Virus record (IMG/VR): IMGVR_UViG_2663763280_000005
Location: 1-6,874 of that record
Origin: a virus
Lineage: Duplodnaviria; Heunggongvirae; Uroviricota; Caudoviricetes
Strand: one strand, 5' to 3'
DNA: 6,874 nt
A program made the position numbers and the translations under genes. The number at the start of each line of letters is the position of its first letter. Positions within the stretch are counted from its first letter, which is position 1. Shown here in pieces: positions 1-6,874 of the stretch. The notes under the pieces were generated by a model that had not been told where the DNA came from, made no database searches, and saw only the letters and a list, made by a program, of their open reading frames with translations.

Positions 1-1
1 A

Positions 2-234
2 GGTGTTCTGGTTAGAACGGGTGTATTTGGTCAGGTTGTAGATGTCGATACCTGCTTCACCCGGATACATCTCGTCTTCGTTAACTTTGATAACGATACG
101 GGAAGCATCCACGTACTGAACGACACCACCACGTTTAGCTACCGCAGTTACACCGGAGTCAACGGCAACAGCACGTTCCATACCAGTACCAACCAGCGGC
201 TTATCAGCGCGCAGAGTCGGAACGGCCTGACGTT
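2..234 (-). CDS. rpoB: DNA-directed RNA polymerase beta subunit, internal fragment (no start or stop in window)
   Basis: Minus-strand translation reads ...[78 protein letters not shown], which matches my recollection of the conserved central RpoB segment. Homology stops abruptly near 234, where the frame runs into unrelated MFS sequence. Confidence 0.85.
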
Positions 235-438
235 GGCGCCGTGCCGCGTTCTTTTTGTGCATACCAGTCGGTGATCGACTTTACTCCCGCAGGCATAAAT
301 GGCGCTTCGCCAATACCCAGACCGATACGCATTAAAATAAAGTGGCTAAAAGAATTAACCATTCCTGTTAATGCCTGCATTAATGACCAGAATATTAAGC
401 CTGCGCCTAAAACAATTCGTGGGCCAAAGCGGTCTAGC
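235..438 (-). CDS. MFS-superfamily transporter, internal fragment (sugar-acid/anion:cation symporter-like)
   Basis: Minus-strand translation [67 protein letters not shown] carries the MFS loop 2-3 signature (GxGxGEAP...ERG) and resembles E. coli DgoT/GudP-type transporters. It is bounded by the n run on one side and the rpoB junction on the other. Confidence 0.55.
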
Positions 439-456
439 NNNACNGNAANGNNGNNN
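439..456. other. Run of ambiguous bases (n interleaved with a few called bases): assembly gap or low-quality join
   Basis: Sequence is nnnacngnaangnngnnn; different genes on opposite strands lie on either side. Confidence 0.95.
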
Positions 457-724
457 AAGCCGTGGCCTGACCGCATTGTTGATGGCGCTGCTGGCCATTT
501 CATTAAGTCGGGTAAAACCGCGGCAAGGGCGATTTTCAACGTTATTGCCACTGACGTTGCTGTTTATTGCCATTTTTTATGGCGGCGACGTCTGCCGTAC
601 GCTGGTGGCTAACGGCGCGATTCCCCTCATTCCTGGTTTGTGGTTAGTACCCGGACTCATGCTAATGGGCCTGCTGATGCTGGTCGCACGCGACTTCTCT
701 TTGCTGCAGAAATTTTCCCGATGA
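457..724 (+). CDS. LptF/LptG (YjgP/YjgQ) family permease, C-terminal fragment (5' end lost in n run)
   Basis: Translation ...LLMALLAISLSRVKPRQGRFSTLLPLTLLFIAIFYGG...LLQKFSR* aligns by eye with the E. coli LptF C-terminus (...VPLSVVNPRQGRVLSMLPAMLLYLLFF...). The stop overlaps the next start as ATGA (721-724), as in lptF-lptG. Confidence 0.5.
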
Positions 725-1460
725 ATGTTTTCAGTCGCTATTTAATCCGTCATCTCTTTCTCGGTTTTGCCGCCGCCGCAGGGCTATTGCTGCCGCTTTT
801 TACCACCTTCAACCTGATTAACGAACTGGATGATGTCAGCCCGGGCGGTTATCGCTGGACTCAGGCGGTGCTGGTGGTGCTAATGACCTTACCGCGCACA
901 CTGGTCGAACTTTCGCCGTTTATCGCGTTATTGGGTGGTATTGTTGGACTGGGGCAGTTATCGAAAAACAGTGAGCTTACCGCCATTCGCAGCACGGGGT
1001 TTTCTATCTTCCGTATTGCACTGGTGGCGCTGGTTGCCGGGATATTGTGGACTGTTTCGTTAGGCGCGATAGATGAGTGGGTGGCGTCGCCATTGCAGCA
1101 ACAGGCGTTGCAAATCAAATCGACCGCCACCGCGTTGGGGGAGGACGATGATATTACCGGCAATATGCTGTGGGCCAGGCGCGGTAATGAATTTGTGACG
1201 GTGAAATCGCTGAATGAACAGGGCCAGCCTGTGGGCGTGGAGATATTTCATTATCGCGACGATCTCTCGCTCGAATCCTACATTTATGCACGCAGTGCCA
1301 CCATTGAAGACGACAAAACGTGGATTCTGCATGGTGTGAATCATAAAAAATGGCTGAATGGCAAAGAAACGCTGGAAATATTAGATAATCTTGCCTGGCA
1401 ATCGACATTCACCAGTATGAATCTTGAAGAACTGTCGATGCCGGGCAATAGCTTTTCCGT
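721..1460 (+). CDS. LptF/LptG (YjgP/YjgQ) family permease, 3'-truncated
   Basis: ATG at 721. Hydrophobic N-terminal region with the [12 protein letters not shown] motif (compare LptG SELVVMQASGF), followed by a soluble beta-rich domain. The expected C-terminal TM bundle is missing: homology ends near 1460 where the phage terL fragment begins. It is divergent from canonical E. coli LptG, so probably a paralog or from another genus. Confidence 0.55.
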
Positions 1461-1573
1461 TCGTGGCGCTGGCAGGCCTGAATCACAAACTGGCAGGCCA
1501 CAATCTTTCCCCGCACGACATCACGGGCATACTGATTGGCAGCATTTACGTTGGGGTAAGATTTCCGGCTCAT
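1461..1573 (-). pseudogene. Phage terminase large subunit, N-terminal fragment only (~37 codons)
   Basis: ATG at 1573..1571 overlaps the terS stop as ATGA. Translation [37 protein letters not shown] resembles the conserved TerL N-terminus (A.QYA.DV..G.I.AC..V..ACQRHL.DL). Similarity is lost after about codon 37 and the frame stops at codon 55. Confidence 0.4.
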
Positions 1574-2064
1574 GATTCGATGATTTTCAGAAACGGGTTA
1601 GTGGCTTTCTTCTGCCCCGCCAGGCCTATCAGACGCTGGCGGCTGCTGGGGTCGAGTCCGAGCATTGCCCCCGTGCTGCTCATCTCGGACTCCTGTTCTT
1701 TCTTGGCGGTCAGCTCCGGGTTTTTGACCCTGCCGCCCATTGCGCCGGTGATGGTGTTGCCCTGGCTGGCAATATTTTTCACGGCACGTCGCCAGAACTC
1801 ATAGGCCACGCACCACCGCTCAAGTACCGCCAGGTCAGTCACGCACAGCAGGCCCTGACCGCAGAGTTCTTTGGTTGTCAGTTGCCACATGATCGTGGCG
1901 AGAGGGAGATCTTCTTCTGCGAACCACTCCGGTGGCTCAACACCTTTGATGGGCGTAAAAACAGGTTCATCTTTATTCAGGGCTCGCTTGCCGGGGTTTC
2001 CGGCCAGCGCCTTGCGCGCCGTTGGCTTGGGGCGACGCCCGGAACGCCCCGCCGTTCCAGCCAT
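1570..2064 (-). CDS. Phage terminase small subunit (P27 family)
   Basis: Translation [36 protein letters not shown]... is typical of the P27-family TerS N-terminus. AGGAG lies 8 nt upstream of the ATG at 2064. The upstream GTG at 2073 lacks an RBS. Confidence 0.85.
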
Positions 2065-2114
2065 ATGCGGCACTCCTGGTTAAATTTCATTTTTCGCGGG
2101 TATAAAAAAACGAT

Positions 2115-2163
2115 GGGGCGGGCAGTCCGGAAGACGTCAGGTCACAGGGATTTGACCCGCCCC
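2115..2163. repeat. GC-rich inverted-repeat element in the HNH-terS intergenic region; candidate cos (cohesive-end) site
   Basis: ggggcggg (2115-2122) pairs with cccgcccc (2156-2163). Inside are the palindrome gacgtc (2133-2138) and the pair ggtca (2140-2144) / tgacc (2153-2157). In HK97-like phages cos lies between the HNH gene and terS. Confidence 0.3.
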
Positions 2164-2189
2164 TCCCCTCAGACAGTTGAGAATTATTA

Positions 2190-2540
2190 TCACTTCAGCC
2201 GTTCACGGGCCGTCTTCGCCTTATGACACGGCCAGCACAGACTCTGCAGATTACAGTCGGCATCAGTGCCGCCATGCGCTTTAGGGATGATGTGGTCAAC
2301 GGCTTTCGCCTCACGCACCACACCGGCACGCAGACATAACTGACACAGGCCTTTGTCACGCTTCAGGACACGCGCGCGGATACTGTCCCACTTCGAACCG
2401 TAGCCGCGCTGATGACGGGATTGTCTAGGTTTGTATTGCTTCCAGCCTTCGCTTTTGTGGCTTTCGCAGTAGCCTGACGGGTCAGTCGTGGTATGGCGGC
2501 AACCGCGAACACGGCAGGCTTTTGGGATTCGTGGCGGCAT
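2190..2540 (-). CDS. Phage HNH endonuclease (packaging-associated)
   Basis: N-terminal Cys-rich zinc ribbon (CRVRGCRH...YCESH) and HNH core (VDHIIPKAHGGTDADCNLQSLCWPCHKAK). Start assigned to the ATG at 2540 (MPPRIPK), because the longer ORF to 2591 would run through the terminator hairpin. Confidence 0.85.
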   Translation of the reverse strand: MPPRIPKACRVRGCRHTTTDPSGYCESHKSEGWKQYKPRQSRHQRGYGSKWDSIRARVLKRDKGLCQLCLRAGVVREAKAVDHIIPKAHGGTDADCNLQSLCWPCHKAKTARERLK

Positions 2541-2575
2541 TGAAGACTCTCTTTGATGTGCATGTGTGGTGCGCA

Positions 2576-2600
2576 TAAAAAAGCCCCGCATGTGCGAGGC
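2576..2600 (-). terminator. Rho-independent terminator ending the AT-rich three-gene operon
   Basis: Minus-strand RNA is GCCUCGC-ACAU-GCGGGGC followed by UUUUUUA: a 7-bp GC-rich stem with one U-G wobble. On the plus strand the same position is a C-A mismatch, so the hairpin is better on the minus strand. It lies 26 nt downstream of the gene C stop. Confidence 0.6.
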
Positions 2601-2625
2601 TAATGATTTGCATAAATTTGTTGTT

Positions 2626-2928
2626 TCAGTCTAGCTTTATAAGTTTTACGGGTTTCTCGCCTGCTTCTACACACCAGTTGTTGTACTCATGTACAGCTCG
2701 CATCAGCTCACCATCATAGTGACCAACCTTCTCTACAAGGGATGTAAGCGATTGGGGGTTGAATTCAACAATTTCTGGTGGGATGAGGTTTACATTCCCT
2801 TTCTGATGAAGGGCATAGACAGCAGTACGTAAATCACCAATAGCTTTCATTCGTTCAGCATGAAGATCTTTGATCTTTTCATTAAGGATTTTGCAGCGAC
2901 CTATTGCTTCATAATTCAGTTCAGACAT
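2626..2928 (-). CDS. Hypothetical protein, 100 aa (moron operon gene C), no recognised family
   Basis: ATG at 2928 preceded by AGGAGG with a 5-nt spacer. AT-rich codon usage matches genes A and B. Translation MSELNYEAIGRCKILNEKIKDLHAERMKAIGDL... is a soluble, helix-prone sequence. Confidence 0.6.
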   Translation of the reverse strand: MSELNYEAIGRCKILNEKIKDLHAERMKAIGDLRTAVYALHQKGNVNLIPPEIVEFNPQSLTSLVEKVGHYDGELMRAVHEYNNWCVEAGEKPVKLIKLD

Positions 2929-2973
2929 TCTGCCCTCCTATTAAAATTCGTTATCTTTAGAGATAACTCTATA

Positions 2974-3360
2974 TTAAGAATGATTTTCTTTATCCTTAAA
3001 ATAATACCCAATTATAAATCCTAATGAAGTACCAAGGGCAGTAATCATTATTGACAATACCTTTTCCAGCTCGAGTGGCTTTAAATATTGAACGTAATCA
3101 TCAACACCTTTGCTCTTTAACTCTAAAGCCCAATTCACAACAGAATTATTATACCAAAGAACAAAAAGACAGCTAAAAATAAGAAGGCAAAAAAAGAACC
3201 AGAGAAACGTAATAGTTAAGGCGCTTCGTGTTTTACCATCAGTATGCTTAGAGTTAACAGCATTTTCCTCTGCTTTTCCAGCTGACTCTTCAATTTTTTT
3301 ATTTTCGATCCTGGCTACTTTTAATCTATCAAGGATGCTTCCAACATCTTCAATCGACAT
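2974..3360 (-). CDS. Hypothetical small membrane protein, 128 aa, two predicted TM helices (moron operon gene B)
   Basis: ATG at 3360 preceded by GGGAGGG 7 nt upstream. It overlaps the gene A stop by 11 nt. Hydrophobic stretches are ALTITFLWFFFCLLIFSCLFVLWY and VLSIMITALGTSLGFIIGYYF. The ORF-track start (TTG at 3378) is less likely. Confidence 0.6.
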   Translation of the reverse strand: MSIEDVGSILDRLKVARIENKKIEESAGKAEENAVNSKHTDGKTRSALTITFLWFFFCLLIFSCLFVLWYNNSVVNWALELKSKGVDDYVQYLKPLELEKVLSIMITALGTSLGFIIGYYFKDKENHS

Positions 3361-3661
3361 TTGAATTCCCTCCCGCAATTTTAGATAAGGAGTTCATAGC
3401 CTCAACATAGTCTGAACTTAAAGACTCATTATATTTTTCAATACTCGAAATTCCATTTTTCACAACTGGGCTAATTTTTATGTAGAGAGCAACCTGTCCT
3501 TTTTCAAACTCAGAGAGATTATCACCAGAGTTTTTGCGGATATCCTCAATTGAGTTCAATAGCTCTGTAATAAGAACCATGTGAGCATCAGCCATCGCAG
3601 CAGATGCTGCTCTGAACTCCGCAATCTTTTCAATAGCTTGTTTGATTTTTATGTTTGACAT
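3350..3661 (-). CDS. Hypothetical protein, 103 aa (moron operon gene A), no recognised family
   Basis: ATG at 3661 preceded by GGAGA 6 nt upstream. Translation MSNIKIKQAIEKIAEFRAASAAMADAHMVLITELLNSIEDIRKNSG... is soluble and helix-prone. It is the first gene downstream of an AT-rich non-coding leader. Confidence 0.6.
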   Translation of the reverse strand: MSNIKIKQAIEKIAEFRAASAAMADAHMVLITELLNSIEDIRKNSGDNLSEFEKGQVALYIKISPVVKNGISSIEKYNESLSSDYVEAMNSLSKIAGGNSNVD

Positions 3662-3922
3662 ATTATCTCCATCATATAATGTTCATATTCTCTCACTTAT
3701 CATCAAAAATGACAAGCTAAGGGAACCACTTAATTTATATGTGGAAAGAATGATTAAATTTTTCAATCTTAATATATACATCACATCAATTATTAAAAGT
3801 AACAAAACACTTGTCTACTTATAACTTTATTGTTTTTCATATTTAGGTAAGCATGAGCAATAATTATATCGTATTCTGTGTGGTATATTATATTCATCTA
3901 CTAACAAGAAAAATATACCACT
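3662..3922 (-). promoter_or_regulatory. AT-rich non-coding leader; probable promoter/operator region for the three-gene operon
   Basis: About 260 nt with no convincing ORF and several TATA-like hexamers on the minus strand. Contains a 9-bp perfect inverted repeat, gtggtatat (3880-3888) / atataccac (3913-3921). I could not pin down a single -35/-10 pair. Confidence 0.3.
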
Positions 3923-4193
3923 TCAAATTGTACGTTTGTATTTCTTATGCATACCGCGCTCAACAGAGTCACCAGGAATATGGTTAATAGTCTGCTGTAT
4001 ATTTCTGGCCTCTTCCGTTGCCTCTACACGGTGTCCTGCTGCTGAGTGCTTAGCCGCTGCGTTAACTTCAGTGTATAACAGAGCAGTTTTAACCTCTTCT
4101 TTTACTAGTGCCACGGATACGCCCTAGGCCAACAACTCCAGCGATAACAGTGATAACCAAAGCAACCAGTCCAATAAATCTTTCGATACTCAT
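3923..4193 (-). pseudogene. Possible frameshifted gene for a small membrane-anchored protein (two overlapping frames)
   Basis: ATG at 4193 gives MSIERFIGLVALVITVIAGVVGLGRIRGTSKRRG* (stop 4091..4089). A +1 frame opens 4 codons before the track's GTG at 4114 and gives ...ALVKEEVKTALLYTEVNAAAKHSAAGHRVEATEEARNIQQTINHIPGDSVERGMHKKYKRTI* (to 3923). One indel near 4110-4125 would fuse them into a protein of about 90 aa with an N-terminal TM anchor. No clear SD precedes the ATG at 4193. Confidence 0.3.
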
Positions 4194-4270
4194 TGCATCA
4201 GAACAGATTTTGCCAAATTAACAGAACGGGCGTGGTATAACACTTCGAAAACACGATCAATCTGCCTCTT

Positions 4271-4708
4271 TTAATTCATGCATTGAGTTCTGATGTATTC
4301 CTGTAGGTAATTAACCTGTGCGGTTATCCTGTCGATTCCACTTCGGAGACGGTAATAATTGAATTCAGCATCTGCTGTAAGTCCTGGGCTTTCTCCATCG
4401 CCCATGCCGCTGGCTCTGGTCGTTGATTTTGCACAGGTGGCGGCGACTTGCAGGCGCTTACGCCCAGAAGAAACATCAGCACGGAGACTTTCGATAGTCG
4501 CGTTAGCATCAGCAAGCTCCTTTGTGTATCTGGCGTCGAGTTCTGCTACATCACGTTGACGCTTCTGCATATCAGCGATGATGGATGTGGCTTTATCGCG
4601 CTGTTCTTTGTAGGTAATGGCGTTATCACGGTAATGATTAACAGCCCATGACAGGCAGACGATGATGCAGATAACAAGAGCGGAGATAATCGCGGTGACT
4701 CTGCTCAT
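4271..4708 (-). CDS. Rz: Spanin inner-membrane subunit (i-spanin) Rz
   Basis: N-terminus [34 protein letters not shown] matches lambda Rz as I recall it. ATG overlaps the R stop as ATGA (4705-4708). The C-terminal half diverges from lambda Rz. Confidence 0.9.
4324..4515 (-). CDS. Rz1: Spanin outer-membrane lipoprotein (o-spanin) Rz1, embedded in the +1 frame of Rz
   Basis: Translation [22 protein letters not shown]|[13 protein letters not shown]... has a signal peptide, a lipobox (LLGVSAC) and a proline-rich mature region, and lies wholly inside Rz in a different frame, as with lambda Rz1. Confidence 0.7.
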
Positions 4709-5181
4709 GCCTCAATCTCTCTTACCGTTCCGCCAGCTTCTTTGAATTTTGCAATCAGGCTGTCAGCCTTATGCTCGAACTGACCGTAACCAGCCCCCGG
4801 CAGTGAAGCCCAGATATTGCTGCAACGGTCGATAGCCTGACGAATATCGCCGCGATCAATCATTGGTAAAGCGCCACGCTCTTTAATCTGCTGCAGCGCA
4901 ACAGCATCCTGGCTTTTCGGAGAGAAGTCTTTCAGGCCAAGCTGCTTACGGTAGGCATCCCACCAACGGGAAAGAAGCTGGTAGCGTCCGGCGGCTGTTG
5001 ATTTGAGTTTGGGGTTTAGCGTGACAAGTTTGCGAGGGTGATCGGAGTAATCAGTGAAGAGTTCACCACCGACAATAACGTCATAACCGTGGTTACGTGT
5101 CGGTTGTCGTCCGTTATCCGTTCCTTCTGACCAAGCCACCATATCAAGGAAAGCTTTACGCTGGGAATTTAGTACCTGCAT
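4705..5181 (-). CDS. R: Endolysin, lambda R-type lytic transglycosylase
   Basis: The 158-aa product [61 protein letters not shown]... is near-identical to lambda R ([42 protein letters not shown]...). AAGGAG lies 6 nt upstream of the ATG at 5181. Confidence 0.95.
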
Positions 5182-5184
5182 AAA

Positions 5185-5511
5185 TTACTCCTTAGAGCCA
5201 CCAAATTTGTTACCGATTACTCGCATTGCAGCCCCACGAATAGCATCGACACCGATCAGCCCCACCCCACCACCAATGGCAACAGAAAGTGATTTAGGCC
5301 ATCCGACATACTCAAGAGCGGATGCAAAGGTCAGCGTCAGAGCGCCACATAGCAAAATCTCAAGCGTTTTTCGCTTCCAGCCACCACCACCGCCAAAATA
5401 GGCGATGCGCAAACCAGCCATAACGATCGACATAATCACTGCGCCCAGCGGTGTGTCTCCACGCCACCAGCTCTGGACCAACTCCAACCAGGTATTTGGG
5501 TTATGAGGCAT
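5185..5511 (-). CDS. Holin (three-TM class I, lambda S-like architecture)
   Basis: 108 aa directly upstream of the endolysin, with a 3-nt gap. Three hydrophobic segments (PLGAVIMSIVMAGLRIAYF, LEILLCGALTLTFASALEYVG, LSVAIGGGVGLIGVDAI) and a charged C-terminal tail. There is no dual-start motif: the in-frame upstream codons are Q, L, stop. Confidence 0.75.
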   Translation of the reverse strand: MPHNPNTWLELVQSWWRGDTPLGAVIMSIVMAGLRIAYFGGGGGWKRKTLEILLCGALTLTFASALEYVGWPKSLSVAIGGGVGLIGVDAIRGAAMRVIGNKFGGSKE

Positions 5512-5650
5512 TTGTAGTTATCTCTCACCTCGCTGATACAGCAGGTGCAAATTGAGGGAACATCATGTACCGCAAATCAGAAGCGGAAACGTCAAAGAAG
5601 CCGAACCAATGGATAACTGCGGAATAGGCCAGAACCAACGAATCCCCAGC

Positions 5651-5684
5651 CCCAGAAACGACAAAACCCGCTCGACGCGGGTTT
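5651..5684 (-). terminator. Intrinsic terminator-like hairpin upstream of the holin (tR'-like late terminator candidate)
   Basis: Perfect 8-bp stem aaacccgc (5664-5671) / gcgggttt (5677-5684) with loop tcgac. On the minus-strand RNA it is followed by UUUUGUCGUUUCU (5663..5651). On the plus strand the T tract is shorter (tttaag). Confidence 0.45.
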
Positions 5685-5800
5685 AAGCTGTGTGGCGAAG
5701 TAACCACTCTTAACAGATTATGATAGTTTTTGCGTACGCGTTAGTAATTTATTATGCTCTTTACAATTGTTAGCTTAACCGCATGGAATTGACCAAAAAA

Positions 5801-6720
5801 ATGAGCAAAGTAAGCATACGCCACGTAATCGTTCATGAGCTCTTAAAAGAATCTAATAAAGACTTCGATCACTCCAAACCATACAATCTTCGTGATACAG
5901 AACTAGATAAAACAAATGATATAGTAAAAAAATTAGTAGACGGTGTTATTGATTTGTATGGTTCAAAAGGGAACTCAGCGCATTATGGTGTTTTTATTAA
6001 AAATAAAACAAAGCAAGGCCCTATACCAGAACTATTTCATAAATACTCTTTAGTTCAACAATCTGTTTCAAGTGATTTCATTGAATTATCGAAGGAAGTT
6101 ATGAAACAAATGTATAAATCTGCTCAAGAGCAGATTTGGGCTTCTGGAGGATATGTTGTTTTTACTGATTATATTTTATCTGGTTTCCGTTATCTATTGG
6201 TTACAATGATCAAAAAAACTAATGGCGTAACTATTAGTGAAAATTTAGAGCCAGAGGAAATGATTCACTTAGAACTTGGTAATATTAACCAAGCAGCAAA
6301 AATAAATTTCAGATATTATGAAGAATACCAAAAAGCAGATGACTTAAAAAAAACAGACTTAAGTTATCTAAGCTTTATAAGCAAAACTACGGGACAGTCA
6401 GCGGCAGCATATTTTATAGCAGCATTAGGATGTGACAAGGGGATTGCTTCAGCAGGTGCAACCCGTAAGTTACCAGATGAAATAAGGCGTTTCTTTAAGA
6501 AAGAACCTCTTTTAAAAAATCAAGCAGAGTCATTTAGAAATGATGTTATCAAATACTTAGAAAAGCAATTTGACAACGAGCACTCTGCAAGGCTTTCTGA
6601 TATCGAATCGCTTGCTTCAGGCCATATGTCCGATTTAAAAGAGGAAGAAAAAACAGAACTTGTTGATAAATTAATGAAACACCTCAATAGTGAGGAAGTC
6701 AGAATCCCATCAGAGTTCGT
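5801..6720 (+). CDS. NA37/NdpA (YejK) family nucleoid-associated protein, divergent low-GC paralog; 3' end uncertain
   Basis: From the ATG at 5801 the translation MSKVSIRHVIVHELLKE...ASGGYVVFTDYILSGFRYLLVTMIKK...YLSFISKTTGQSAAAYFIAALG aligns by eye with E. coli YejK/NdpA (MSLDINQIALHQLIKRDE...[25 protein letters not shown]...[22 protein letters not shown]). The true C-terminus is obscured, because the open frame runs through n 6723 into unrelated sequence. Confidence 0.6.
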
Positions 6721-6723
6721 AAN

Positions 6724-6873
6724 AGTAAATTGCCCTGCGACGGGTCAAAAGCATTCAGCCCCCAAATGCGTAAGTCTGGCCTGTTCCGCACTCAACTACG
6801 GGCGATTTTGCGCGCTGCCAGTTTTGGCAACGCCCAGTTGATGATCCCGATGGTTCACAGCCTCGATCAGATC
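6724..6873 (+). CDS. PEP-utilising enzyme (PTS enzyme I family) internal fragment
   Basis: Translation in the frame of the codon at 6781 gives ...[32 protein letters not shown], which resembles PtsI ...[30 protein letters not shown]. It is a family member, not PtsI itself. It runs off the window end. Confidence 0.5.
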
Positions 6874-6874
6874 T

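What the first reader, a model, noticed from the sequence alone, without database searches (positions are those of the whole stretch)
3923..4193. Apparent frameshift splitting a small membrane-anchored protein gene just downstream of Rz
A 34-codon ORF with a clear N-terminal TM segment (MSIERFIGLVALVITVIAGVVGLGR...) is followed, in the +1 frame, by an open frame of about 67 codons encoding a charged soluble tail. A single indel would fuse them. This could be a decaying moron, a sequencing error in a real gene (the window already contains n's), or a programmed frameshift. The location next to the lysis cassette would suit a lysis regulator or an exclusion protein.
Basis: partly seen in the sequence, partly recalled or inferred. 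Interest (0 to 1): 0.4.

Follow-up and report, generated by a model that had tools for sequence, protein, structure and literature searches.

The report
Frameshifted relic of second spanin pair
The split small membrane-protein gene after Rz is a dead leftover of a second, different phage spanin (outer-membrane lysis) gene pair, left by recombination between two kinds of lysis cassette and broken by one extra A plus several other lesions; it is ordinary gene decay, not a sequencing error or a programmed frameshift.

Summary
On the minus strand, a 34-codon ORF with a membrane-spanning N-terminus (4193..4089) is followed in the +1 frame by a 66-codon open frame (4124..3923).

- **Identity:** joined after codon 31, the two frames give an 89-aa protein. 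It aligns without gaps to the 89-91-aa "overlapped" i-spanins of phages HK639 and mEp390 (about 50% identity) and matches phrog_1026 end to end (E=6.5e-14).
- **Cause of the split:** DNA alignment shows one extra A in the run at 4103-4100 compared with every intact relative.
- **Other lesions in the unit:**
  - The GAGGT ribosome-binding site before the ATG is deleted (8 nt).
  - The partner o-spanin gene, which in relatives starts 190 nt into the i-spanin gene, has ATG changed to ATA (4000) and is cut off after 33 of 75 codons (about 3904), where an AT-rich module begins.
  - Only about 40 nt of the cognate GH19 endolysin gene remain (about 4234-4196).
- **Redundancy:** an intact lambda/HK97-type S-R-Rz/Rz1 cassette lies immediately upstream.
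- **Not a sequencing error:** the same frameshifted sequence is base-identical in 12 independent assemblies, and the 63-aa ORF is indexed in 255 blocks of a public assembly collection. No intact copy of this allele was found.
- **Independent decay:** a sister prophage lineage carries the same relic in a more decayed state.

Verdict: a pseudogene relic, of low interest. RefSeq annotates the 63-aa fragment as a hypothetical protein.

The parts
4196..4234 (-). Remnant of the last ~13 codons of a GH19-type endolysin gene (reads ...RSVNLAKSVLMQ*). It marks the left edge of the relic cassette.
   Evidence: Local DNA alignment of the 77-nt Rz-to-ATG spacer against the last 90 nt of the endolysin genes of E. 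coli 1344_LBHALD and HK639 scores 20 and 17; 0 of 2000 shuffles reach that. mEp390 does not (score 9; 351 of 2000 shuffles reach it). Collinear in the alignment (columns 57-92). Protein-level match NLAKSVLM vs NLAKSVLV, weak on its own.
4194..4199 (-). Site of an 8-nt deletion that removed the GAGGT Shine-Dalgarno sequence of the i-spanin gene (window reads ctgatgca|ATG).
   Evidence: Alignment (columns 89-96, gap only in the window). Kongari et al. record GAGGT as the SD of HK639_70 and mEp390_051.
4089..4193 (-). ORF1: i-spanin codons 1-31 (N-terminal transmembrane segment plus the conserved RGTSK motif), then three out-of-frame codons (RRG) and TAA.
   Evidence: phrog_1026 positions 5-35. 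Family-invariant R27, G28, S30 and K31 are read in this frame.
4100..4103 (-). AAAA run carrying the single extra A, which is the frameshift lesion. The context is AGT AAA A GAA GAG; read in frame 0 it becomes AAA AGA AGA GGT TAA.
   Evidence: A one-column gap in all four and all three relatives, exactly at this run. Base-identical in 12 other assemblies.
3923..4114 (-). ORF2 (63 aa, GTG start as called by PGAP, WP_001385440.1). From 4099 downstream it encodes i-spanin codons 32-89, the periplasmic part.
   Evidence: phrog_1026 positions 46-84, E=4.6e-10. Invariant E33 and K35 are read in this frame. In the representative search it aligns to residues 32-88 of a 92-aa protein.
3904..4002 (-). 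Remnant of the overlapped o-spanin gene: IYSRLLTIFLVTLLSAVCIRNTNVQFEVVYFSC, followed by TAG TAG. The start codon is ATA instead of ATG (G to A at 4000). The lipobox is degenerate (LSAVC vs LIASC). It is truncated after 33 of 75-76 codons.
   Evidence: Third frame. Relatives all start MYS[KR]LLT...LIASC at nt 191 of the i-spanin gene. Alignment. tblastn E=1e-5 to 4e-5 in a small database. 0 of 5000 shuffles reach the observed score for each of 4 relatives. The PHROG scan found nothing for the 33-aa fragment.
2626..3903 (-). AT-rich module (25-37% GC) whose arrival truncated the o-spanin. It holds three ORFs of unknown function (3350-3661, 2974-3378, 2626-2928). It is the right boundary of the relic, not part of the spanin unit.
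   Evidence: Composition profile. Homology to spanin relatives ends near 3904. phrog_21707, 20796 and 4827. No significant Pfam or PADLOC hit.
4271..4708 (-). Intact Rz (i-spanin, lambda/HK97 type) with embedded Rz1 (4324-4515; probable ATG at 4509). This is the functional spanin pair that makes the relic redundant.
   Evidence: phrog_13 E=2e-71 over the full length; phrog_3198 E=2.4e-28. The Rz1 mature sequence is nearly identical to the HK633 embedded o-spanin listed in Kongari et al..
4705..5511 (-). Intact lambda-family holin (5185-5511) and lambda-R-like endolysin (4705-5181), which head the functional lysis cassette.
   Evidence: phrog_126 E=1e-36; phrog_90 E=9e-64. PGAP names.

Best explanation
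The locus is a pseudogene relic of a second two-component spanin unit. The likely history is as follows. An ancestral lambdoid prophage had a cassette of the HK639/mEp390 type: two holins, a GH19 endolysin, a 91-aa i-spanin, and a 75-aa o-spanin overlapping the i-spanin's 3' end in another frame. Recombination with a breakpoint in the last ~40 nt of the GH19 endolysin gene placed a complete lambda/HK97-type S-R-Rz/Rz1 cassette upstream. The downstream spanin pair became redundant and has decayed. The i-spanin gene lost its Shine-Dalgarno sequence (8-nt deletion). It also gained one A in an AAA run after codon 31, which splits it into a 34-codon membrane-anchor ORF and a 63-66-codon tail in the +1 frame. 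The o-spanin lost its ATG (now ATA), and an AT-rich three-gene module replaced its 3' two-thirds. Shown: the homology, the position and nature of each lesion, the intact upstream cassette, the identity of the allele across many assemblies, and independent decay in a sister lineage. Inferred: the order of events, and that the relic has no function. It is probably still transcribed as part of the late operon, since no terminator was found. At most trace amounts of a full-length but partner-less protein could arise by leaky +1 slippage at AAA AGA AGA.
For: (1) The fused product matches phrog_1026 over positions 5-84 of 85, E=6.5e-14, with the two halves collinear. (2) It aligns without gaps to mEp390 gp51, HK639 gp70 and KPP5665-2 gp50 (49, 51 and 37% identity). 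Invariant residues come from frame 0 up to K31 and from the +1 frame from E33. (3) DNA alignments show a single extra base in the window, exactly at the A run 4103-4100. (4) All relatives carry an overlapped o-spanin starting at nt 191. The window has its homologue with ATA in place of ATG and a stop after 33 codons. (5) The SD region is deleted (SD recorded in PMC6139136). (6) An endolysin 3' tail remnant is present. (7) HK639_70/71 and mEp390_051/052 are catalogued as overlapped i-/o-spanins (91 and 75 aa, 86-nt overlap) in Kongari et al. 2018. (8) Intact holin, endolysin, Rz and Rz1 lie upstream. (9) The 421-nt relic is base-identical in 12 assemblies, and the 63-aa ORF is indexed in 255 blocks of the collection. 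A word-indexed search of 5.8 billion protein clusters returned only the 63-aa cluster and no intact version. (10) Cluster variants show further decay: a second frameshift in P0005, and D to G at family-invariant D75 in P0003. (11) FHI_NMBU_10-type prophages share the same Rz and Rz 3' flank. They carry a more degraded, unannotated relic with different lesions: an in-frame TAG at codon 43, the o-spanin ATG changed to AGG, and the o-spanin match split between two reading frames.
Against: The +1 frame has stayed open for all 58 remaining i-spanin codons, and the 421-nt relic is invariant across the 12 assemblies compared. That fits very recent spread, but selection on the sequence cannot be excluded. 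The out-of-frame context created by the insertion (AAA AGA AGA) is a known shift-prone motif in E. coli, so some full-length product may be made. No expression data were available. The PHROG HMM did not recognise the 33-aa o-spanin remnant. Part of that remnant's similarity follows automatically from its overlap with the conserved i-spanin 3' region.
Confidence: 0.9

Rival explanations
1. Programmed, or usefully leaky, +1 ribosomal frameshifting. With peptidyl-tRNA-Lys on AAA and the rare AGA codon (followed by a second AGA) in the A site, the ribosome slips one base forward onto the overlapping AAA. It then continues in the +1 frame and produces a functional 89-aa membrane-anchored periplasmic protein.
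For: The sequence at the shift is AGT AAA AGA AGA GGT TAA. Perfect re-pairing AAA to AAA is possible. Tandem AGA_AGA is documented to cause expression-dependent frameshifting in E. coli (Atkins et al. 2016, PMC5009743). The downstream frame is still fully open.
Against: The AGA AGA codons are simply the ancestral GAA GAG read out of frame after the insertion. The shift site is absent from every diverged homologue; all are in frame. No Shine-Dalgarno-like stimulator lies close upstream of the site. The gene's own SD is deleted. An i-spanin needs its cognate o-spanin, which here has no start codon and lacks two-thirds of its length. The sister lineage lets the same gene decay further. Variants carry additional frameshifts.
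Confidence: 0.04
2. The two ORFs, or one of them, have been co-opted as independent small proteins. Candidates are the 34-aa membrane peptide or the 63-aa soluble fragment that PGAP annotates, acting for example as a lysis modulator or exclusion factor.
For: PGAP calls the 63-aa ORF a protein (WP_001385440.1). An AGGG lies 8 nt before its GTG. The sequence is widespread and invariant. ORF1 has a clean transmembrane segment.
Against: There is no SD before ORF1. The 63-aa fragment would be cytoplasmic, whereas the domain it derives from works in the periplasm. It aligns only to the C-terminal part of full-length family members. Variants with a further frameshift or a change at an invariant residue persist. 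Invariance across copies is explained by recent spread of one prophage block: flanking DNA is 99-100% identical over 3-5 kb.
Confidence: 0.05
3. Sequencing or assembly error in an intact gene. The window does contain n's and looks like a composite of contigs.
For: The window has n's at 439-456 and 6723, and an abrupt prophage/core-genome joint at 1464. The lesion is in a homopolymer.
Against: The homopolymer is only 4 bases. The identical AAAA is present in two complete genomes and ten other assemblies or viral and metagenomic contigs from different laboratories. No assembly yields an intact 89-aa product. The other four lesions cannot be read errors.
Confidence: 0.01

Closest known systems
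Overlapped two-component spanins of phages HK639 (gp70/gp71) and mEp390 (gp51/gp52): i-spanin group '(HK639, mEP390)' and o-spanin family 'BcepNazgul' in Kongari et al. 2018 (PMC6139136); phrog_1026 / phrog_1275
   Same: Collinear homology over the whole conceptual i-spanin (about 50% aa identity). Same N-terminal transmembrane segment and RGTSK motif. The o-spanin reading frame starts at the same nucleotide offset (191). It is preceded by the tail of a GH19 endolysin gene, as in those phages.
   Different: Here the i-spanin is frameshifted by one extra A and has lost its SD. The o-spanin has no start codon, a degenerate lipobox, and is truncated at codon 33. The unit sits behind a complete Rz/Rz1 pair instead of being the phage's only spanin.
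Lambda/HK97-type embedded spanins Rz/Rz1 (the functional neighbour at 4271-4708)
   Same: Same job: an inner-membrane subunit and an outer-membrane lipoprotein that disrupt the outer membrane at lysis. Same position at the end of the lysis cassette.
   Different: The sequence family is unrelated and the gene architecture differs (embedded vs overlapped). No phrog is shared between Rz and the relic.
Frameshifting at tandem rare arginine codons AGA_AGA / AGG_AGG in E. coli (reviewed in Atkins et al. 2016, PMC5009743)
   Same: The insertion creates AAA AGA AGA, a motif of the kind that gives low-level, expression-dependent frameshifting.
   Different: Those cases are incidental, not programmed. 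Here the motif is a by-product of the indel, is not conserved, and would restore a protein that has no partner.

Membership tests
HK639/mEp390-type overlapped i-spanin (phrog_1026) | Sequence homology over the full length of the ~90-aa protein | tested here: met
   The conceptual fusion hits phrog_1026 at positions 5-84 of 85, E=6.5e-14. It aligns without gaps, at 49, 51 and 37% identity, to three members.
HK639/mEp390-type overlapped i-spanin (phrog_1026) | Single N-terminal transmembrane segment followed by a charged periplasmic domain | tested here: met
   Hydropathy of 1.9-2.25 over residues 1-25, negative thereafter. Topology itself was not tested.
HK639/mEp390-type overlapped i-spanin (phrog_1026) | Uninterrupted reading frame of 89-91 codons with a ribosome-binding site | tested here: not met
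   An extra A at 4103-4100 splits the frame. The GAGGT SD is deleted.
HK639/mEp390-type overlapped i-spanin (phrog_1026) | Cognate o-spanin lipoprotein gene overlapping the 3' end (start at nt 191, lipobox LIASC, 75-76 aa) | tested here: not met
   Only a 33-codon remnant is left, with ATA for ATG, LSAVC for the lipobox, and TAG TAG at 3903-3898.
HK639/mEp390-type overlapped i-spanin (phrog_1026) | Location immediately downstream of the endolysin gene of its own cassette | tested here: inconclusive
   Only about 40 nt of a GH19 endolysin 3' end remain upstream. The gene now follows Rz of a different cassette.
HK639/mEp390-type overlapped i-spanin (phrog_1026) | Required for outer-membrane disruption at lysis | not testable with these tools
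   Needs genetics in a lysogen. The family assignment itself is bioinformatic (PMC6139136).
Programmed +1 ribosomal frameshift site | Shift-prone P-site codon with re-pairing in +1 and a slowly decoded A-site codon | tested here: inconclusive
   AAA AGA AGA is present and the motif class is known to be leaky. Sequence alone cannot give the efficiency.
Programmed +1 ribosomal frameshift site | Conservation of the two-frame arrangement and shift site among diverged homologues | tested here: not met
   All diverged homologues are single-frame. The two-frame state occurs only in one invariant allele.
Programmed +1 ribosomal frameshift site | Functional context for the trans-frame product | tested here: not met
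   The partner o-spanin is dead and the SD is lost. The sister lineage shows further decay.

The most novel reading that the evidence does not exclude
The relic is not inert. Leaky +1 slippage at AAA AGA AGA during the burst of late transcription would yield a small amount of a partner-less, membrane-anchored i-spanin-like protein, or the 34-aa anchor peptide alone. That product could modulate lysis, for example by interfering with or timing Rz/Rz1 spanin action. It would be an exapted 'anti-spanin' born from a pseudogene.
Probability: 0.03. Interest if true: 0.45.

Novelty: new member of a known kind. Interest (0 to 1): 0.12.

Why it matters
It matters mainly for annotation and as a small, clean example of phage mosaicism. 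The 63-aa "hypothetical protein" (WP_001385440.1 and its cluster, indexed in 255 blocks of a public assembly collection) should be flagged as a fragment of a frameshifted i-spanin pseudogene. The locus records a recombination joint between two unrelated lysis-cassette types. Once a functional Rz/Rz1 pair is present, a redundant spanin pair decays by several independent lesions in two lineages. This agrees with the view that a phage needs only one spanin system. It opens no long-standing question.

Tried and rejected
- **Pfam:** scans of ORF1, ORF2 and the fusion gave nothing above threshold. The best hit was a sub-threshold DUF1328 match on the transmembrane segment.
- **Word-indexed protein search:** searching 5.8 billion clusters with the fused product returned only the 63-aa cluster, so no close intact allele was found.
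- **GTDB representative genomes:** no relative found.
- **Viral and metagenome contig scans:** four hits, all with the identical frameshifted allele.
- **Exhaustive phmmer with the 63-aa ORF:** 9 hits. The five sequences fetched are i-spanin family members or fragments of 61-113 aa. Two others are 1,385- and 1,636-residue proteins at 28-32% identity that I did not examine. The query is too short to map the family.
- **PHROG scan of the 33-40-aa o-spanin remnant:** no hit. Its homology rests on tblastn, shuffles and position.
- **Protein-level search for more of the GH19 endolysin in the window:** only a weak 8-residue match. The DNA-level shuffle test was needed.
- **Terminator scan of 3600-4400:** none found, so there is no evidence that late transcription stops before the relic.
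- **Transcriptional slippage:** rejected.
- **'Moron' reading:** rejected for the relic itself. It is homologous to core lysis genes. The real cargo-like DNA is the AT-rich module next to it.
- **Structure prediction:** not run. The fused sequence is not a window-encoded protein, and the answer did not depend on it.

Full report
**1. The observation**

The window carries a prophage lysis region on the minus strand:
- holin, 5185-5511
- lambda-R-like endolysin, 4705-5181
- Rz, 4271-4708, with embedded Rz1, 4324-4515

A 34-codon ORF starts 77 nt after the Rz stop, at 4193..4089. It reads MSIERFIGLVALVITVIAGVVGLGRIRGTSKRRG*. Residues 1-25 are strongly hydrophobic. The +1 frame is open from 4124 to the stop at 3925-3923. 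That is 66 codons; the last 63 form the GTG-started ORF 4114..3923.

**2. What the two frames are**

Against PHROGs:

| Query | phrog_1026 positions | E-value |
|---|---|---|
| ORF1 alone | 5-35 | 5e-4 |
| ORF2 alone | 46-84 | 4.6e-10 |
| Conceptual fusion | 5-84 of 85 | 6.5e-14 |

A tblastn search of phage genomes found intact 89-91-aa homologues covering residues 1-88. They occur in mEp390, Citrobacter phage Chris1, Escherichia phage SaltyDalty, many Klebsiella phages and Yersinia phages.

Joining the frames after K31 gives a gapless alignment to mEp390 gp51, HK639 gp70 and KPP5665-2 gp50, at 49, 51 and 37% identity. The family-invariant R27, G28, S30 and K31 are read in frame 0. The invariant E33 and K35 are read in the +1 frame. 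The frame change therefore lies between codons 31 and 33.

Nucleotide alignments with four and then three relatives each put a single one-base gap in every relative at exactly that place. The window reads AGT AAAA GAA GAG where the relatives read AGC AAA GCG GAA. The lesion is one extra A in the run 4103-4100.

**3. What the family is**

In the relatives whose neighbourhood I examined, the gene directly follows the endolysin. It is overlapped by a 75-76-aa ORF that starts at nt 191 of the gene and begins MYS[KR]LLT...LIASC, a lipoprotein signal.

Kongari et al. 2018 (PMC6139136) list HK639_70 and mEp390_051 as overlapped i-spanins (91 aa). The downstream ORFs are listed as overlapped o-spanins (75 aa, 86-nt overlap). 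A GAGGT Shine-Dalgarno sequence is recorded before the i-spanin start. The mEp390 o-spanin hits phrog_1275. These assignments are bioinformatic, not experimental.

**4. The rest of the unit is also broken**

- **o-spanin remnant.** The third minus-strand frame reads IYSRLLTIFLVTLLSAVCIRNTNVQFEVVYFSC** from 4002 to 3904.
  - This is the homologue of the o-spanin N-terminus. Support is tblastn E of about 1e-5 in a small database and 0 of 5000 shuffles reaching the observed score for each of four relatives.
  - The ATG is ATA (G to A at 4000; a conservative V to I change in the i-spanin frame).
  - The lipobox is degenerate.
  - The frame stops after 33 codons.
  - The PHROG HMM does not detect this short remnant.
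- **Right boundary.** Homology to all relatives ends near 3904. There G+C falls to 25-35% and a three-ORF module of unknown function begins.
- **Lost ribosome-binding site.** Upstream of the i-spanin ATG the window lacks 8 nt that hold the SD in relatives.
- **Endolysin tail.** The ~40 nt before the ATG match the last 40 nt of the GH19 endolysin genes of E. coli 1344_LBHALD and HK639 (0 of 2000 shuffles). The same test against mEp390 was not significant (351 of 2000).

The relic therefore spans about 4234 to 3904: an endolysin tail, a frameshifted i-spanin without an SD, and a start-less, truncated o-spanin.

**5. Not an error, and not conserved as a two-frame gene**

- Two complete E. coli genomes are 100% identical over 601 nt. 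PGAP annotates the 63-aa ORF as hypothetical protein WP_001385440.1.
- The 63-aa ORF is indexed in 255 blocks of a public assembly collection. In the seven places shown it always sits in the same block: endolysin, Rz, relic, three ORFs, HNH, TerS.
- The 421-nt relic, including the AAAA run, is base-identical in 12 assemblies and contigs.
- No intact allele was found in the protein collection, GTDB representatives, IMG/VR or JGI metagenomes.
- Minor variants show more damage. P0005 has a second frameshift that runs into the o-spanin remnant frame. P0003 changes the family-invariant D75.

**6. A sister lineage**

Six complete E. coli genomes (FHI_NMBU_10 type) have a homologous Rz and the same Rz 3' flank, followed by an unannotated stretch. 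That stretch holds the same spanin pair in a more decayed state:
- The i-spanin stops at an in-frame TAG after 42 codons.
- The o-spanin ATG has become AGG.
- The o-spanin match falls into two pieces in different reading frames, so that gene is frameshifted too.

The fusion of a lambda-type cassette to this spanin pair therefore predates the split of the two lineages. Each lineage then inactivated the pair by different mutations. This is the strongest argument for relaxed selection.

**7. Mechanism and history** (inferred)

Recombination inside the 3' end of the GH19 endolysin gene replaced the holin and endolysin part of an HK639/mEp390-type cassette with a full lambda/HK97-type S-R-Rz/Rz1 cassette. 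With a working Rz/Rz1 pair, the second pair was redundant and decayed. Later, the AT-rich module removed the o-spanin 3' end.

No terminator-like site lies between Rz and the relic, so it is probably still transcribed late. Without an SD, translation of ORF1 should be poor.

**8. Rivals**

- **Programmed +1 frameshift.** The insertion turns GAA GAG into AGA AGA after a slippery AAA. Tandem AGA_AGA is known to give low, expression-dependent frameshifting in E. coli (PMC5009743), so traces of full-length protein are possible. But the motif is a by-product of the indel, no diverged homologue has it, the SD is gone, and the obligatory partner is dead. I give programmed or useful frameshifting about 4%.
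- **Co-option of either fragment as a new small protein.** About 5%.
- **Sequencing error.** About 1%.

**9. Verdict**

It is a pseudogenised member of a known i-spanin family with the stump of its o-spanin partner. Interest is low. The practical value is an annotation fix and a tidy example of lysis-cassette mosaicism.

Noticed in passing
window 1-1464 and 6723-6874: The window is a composite. 1464-6722 is prophage DNA, 100% identical to one E. coli draft contig (L008). 457-1464 is core lptF/lptG at 100% identity. It abuts the prophage inside the terminase large-subunit gene (minus strand, start 1573), about 110 nt into it, with no n at the joint. There are n's at 439-456 and 6723. TerL and the NA37 gene are therefore cut artificially or by a rearrangement.
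   Followed up: partly
window 5783-6841 (+); loci L008-L014, ~850-2330: The slot between antiterminator Q and the holin is a variable cargo site. Prophages that share the same downstream block carry different cargo there: an NA37 (nucleoid-associated protein family) gene plus a ~400-aa partner (as in this window), KwaA/KwaB (Kiwa defence), a KAP NTPase, or an N6/N4 methyltransferase.
   Followed up: no
window 2626-3661 (-), with intergenic 3662-3903: An AT-rich (25-37% GC) three-gene module of 103, 134 and 100 aa (phrog_21707, 20796, 4827). All are of unknown function with no significant Pfam or PADLOC hit. A sigma-70-like site lies at 3817..3789 on the same strand. It sits between the lysis genes and HNH/TerS and truncated the o-spanin relic.
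   Followed up: partly
L002 3211-3640 (E. coli FHI_NMBU_10 and five other complete genomes): An unannotated, more decayed relic of the same i-/o-spanin pair lies downstream of a homologous Rz. Its inactivating mutations are different.
   Followed up: yes
window 3923-4114 (-); proteins P0002-P0007: RefSeq/PGAP and other pipelines annotate the 63-aa tail as a stand-alone hypothetical protein (WP_001385440.1). Variant P0005 (70 aa, 7 contigs) has a further frameshift in the AAGAAA stretch near 3940 that fuses it to the o-spanin remnant frame.
   Followed up: yes
L005 2501-2921 (Escherichia phage SaltyDalty) and L003 2691-2918 (mEp390): Spanin annotation in deposited records is inconsistent. In SaltyDalty the intact 89-aa i-spanin ORF is not annotated; a 46-aa out-of-frame ORF is called instead. 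In mEp390 and HK639 the o-spanin is annotated from an internal start (49-50 aa) rather than the 75-aa ORF with the lipobox.
   Followed up: partly
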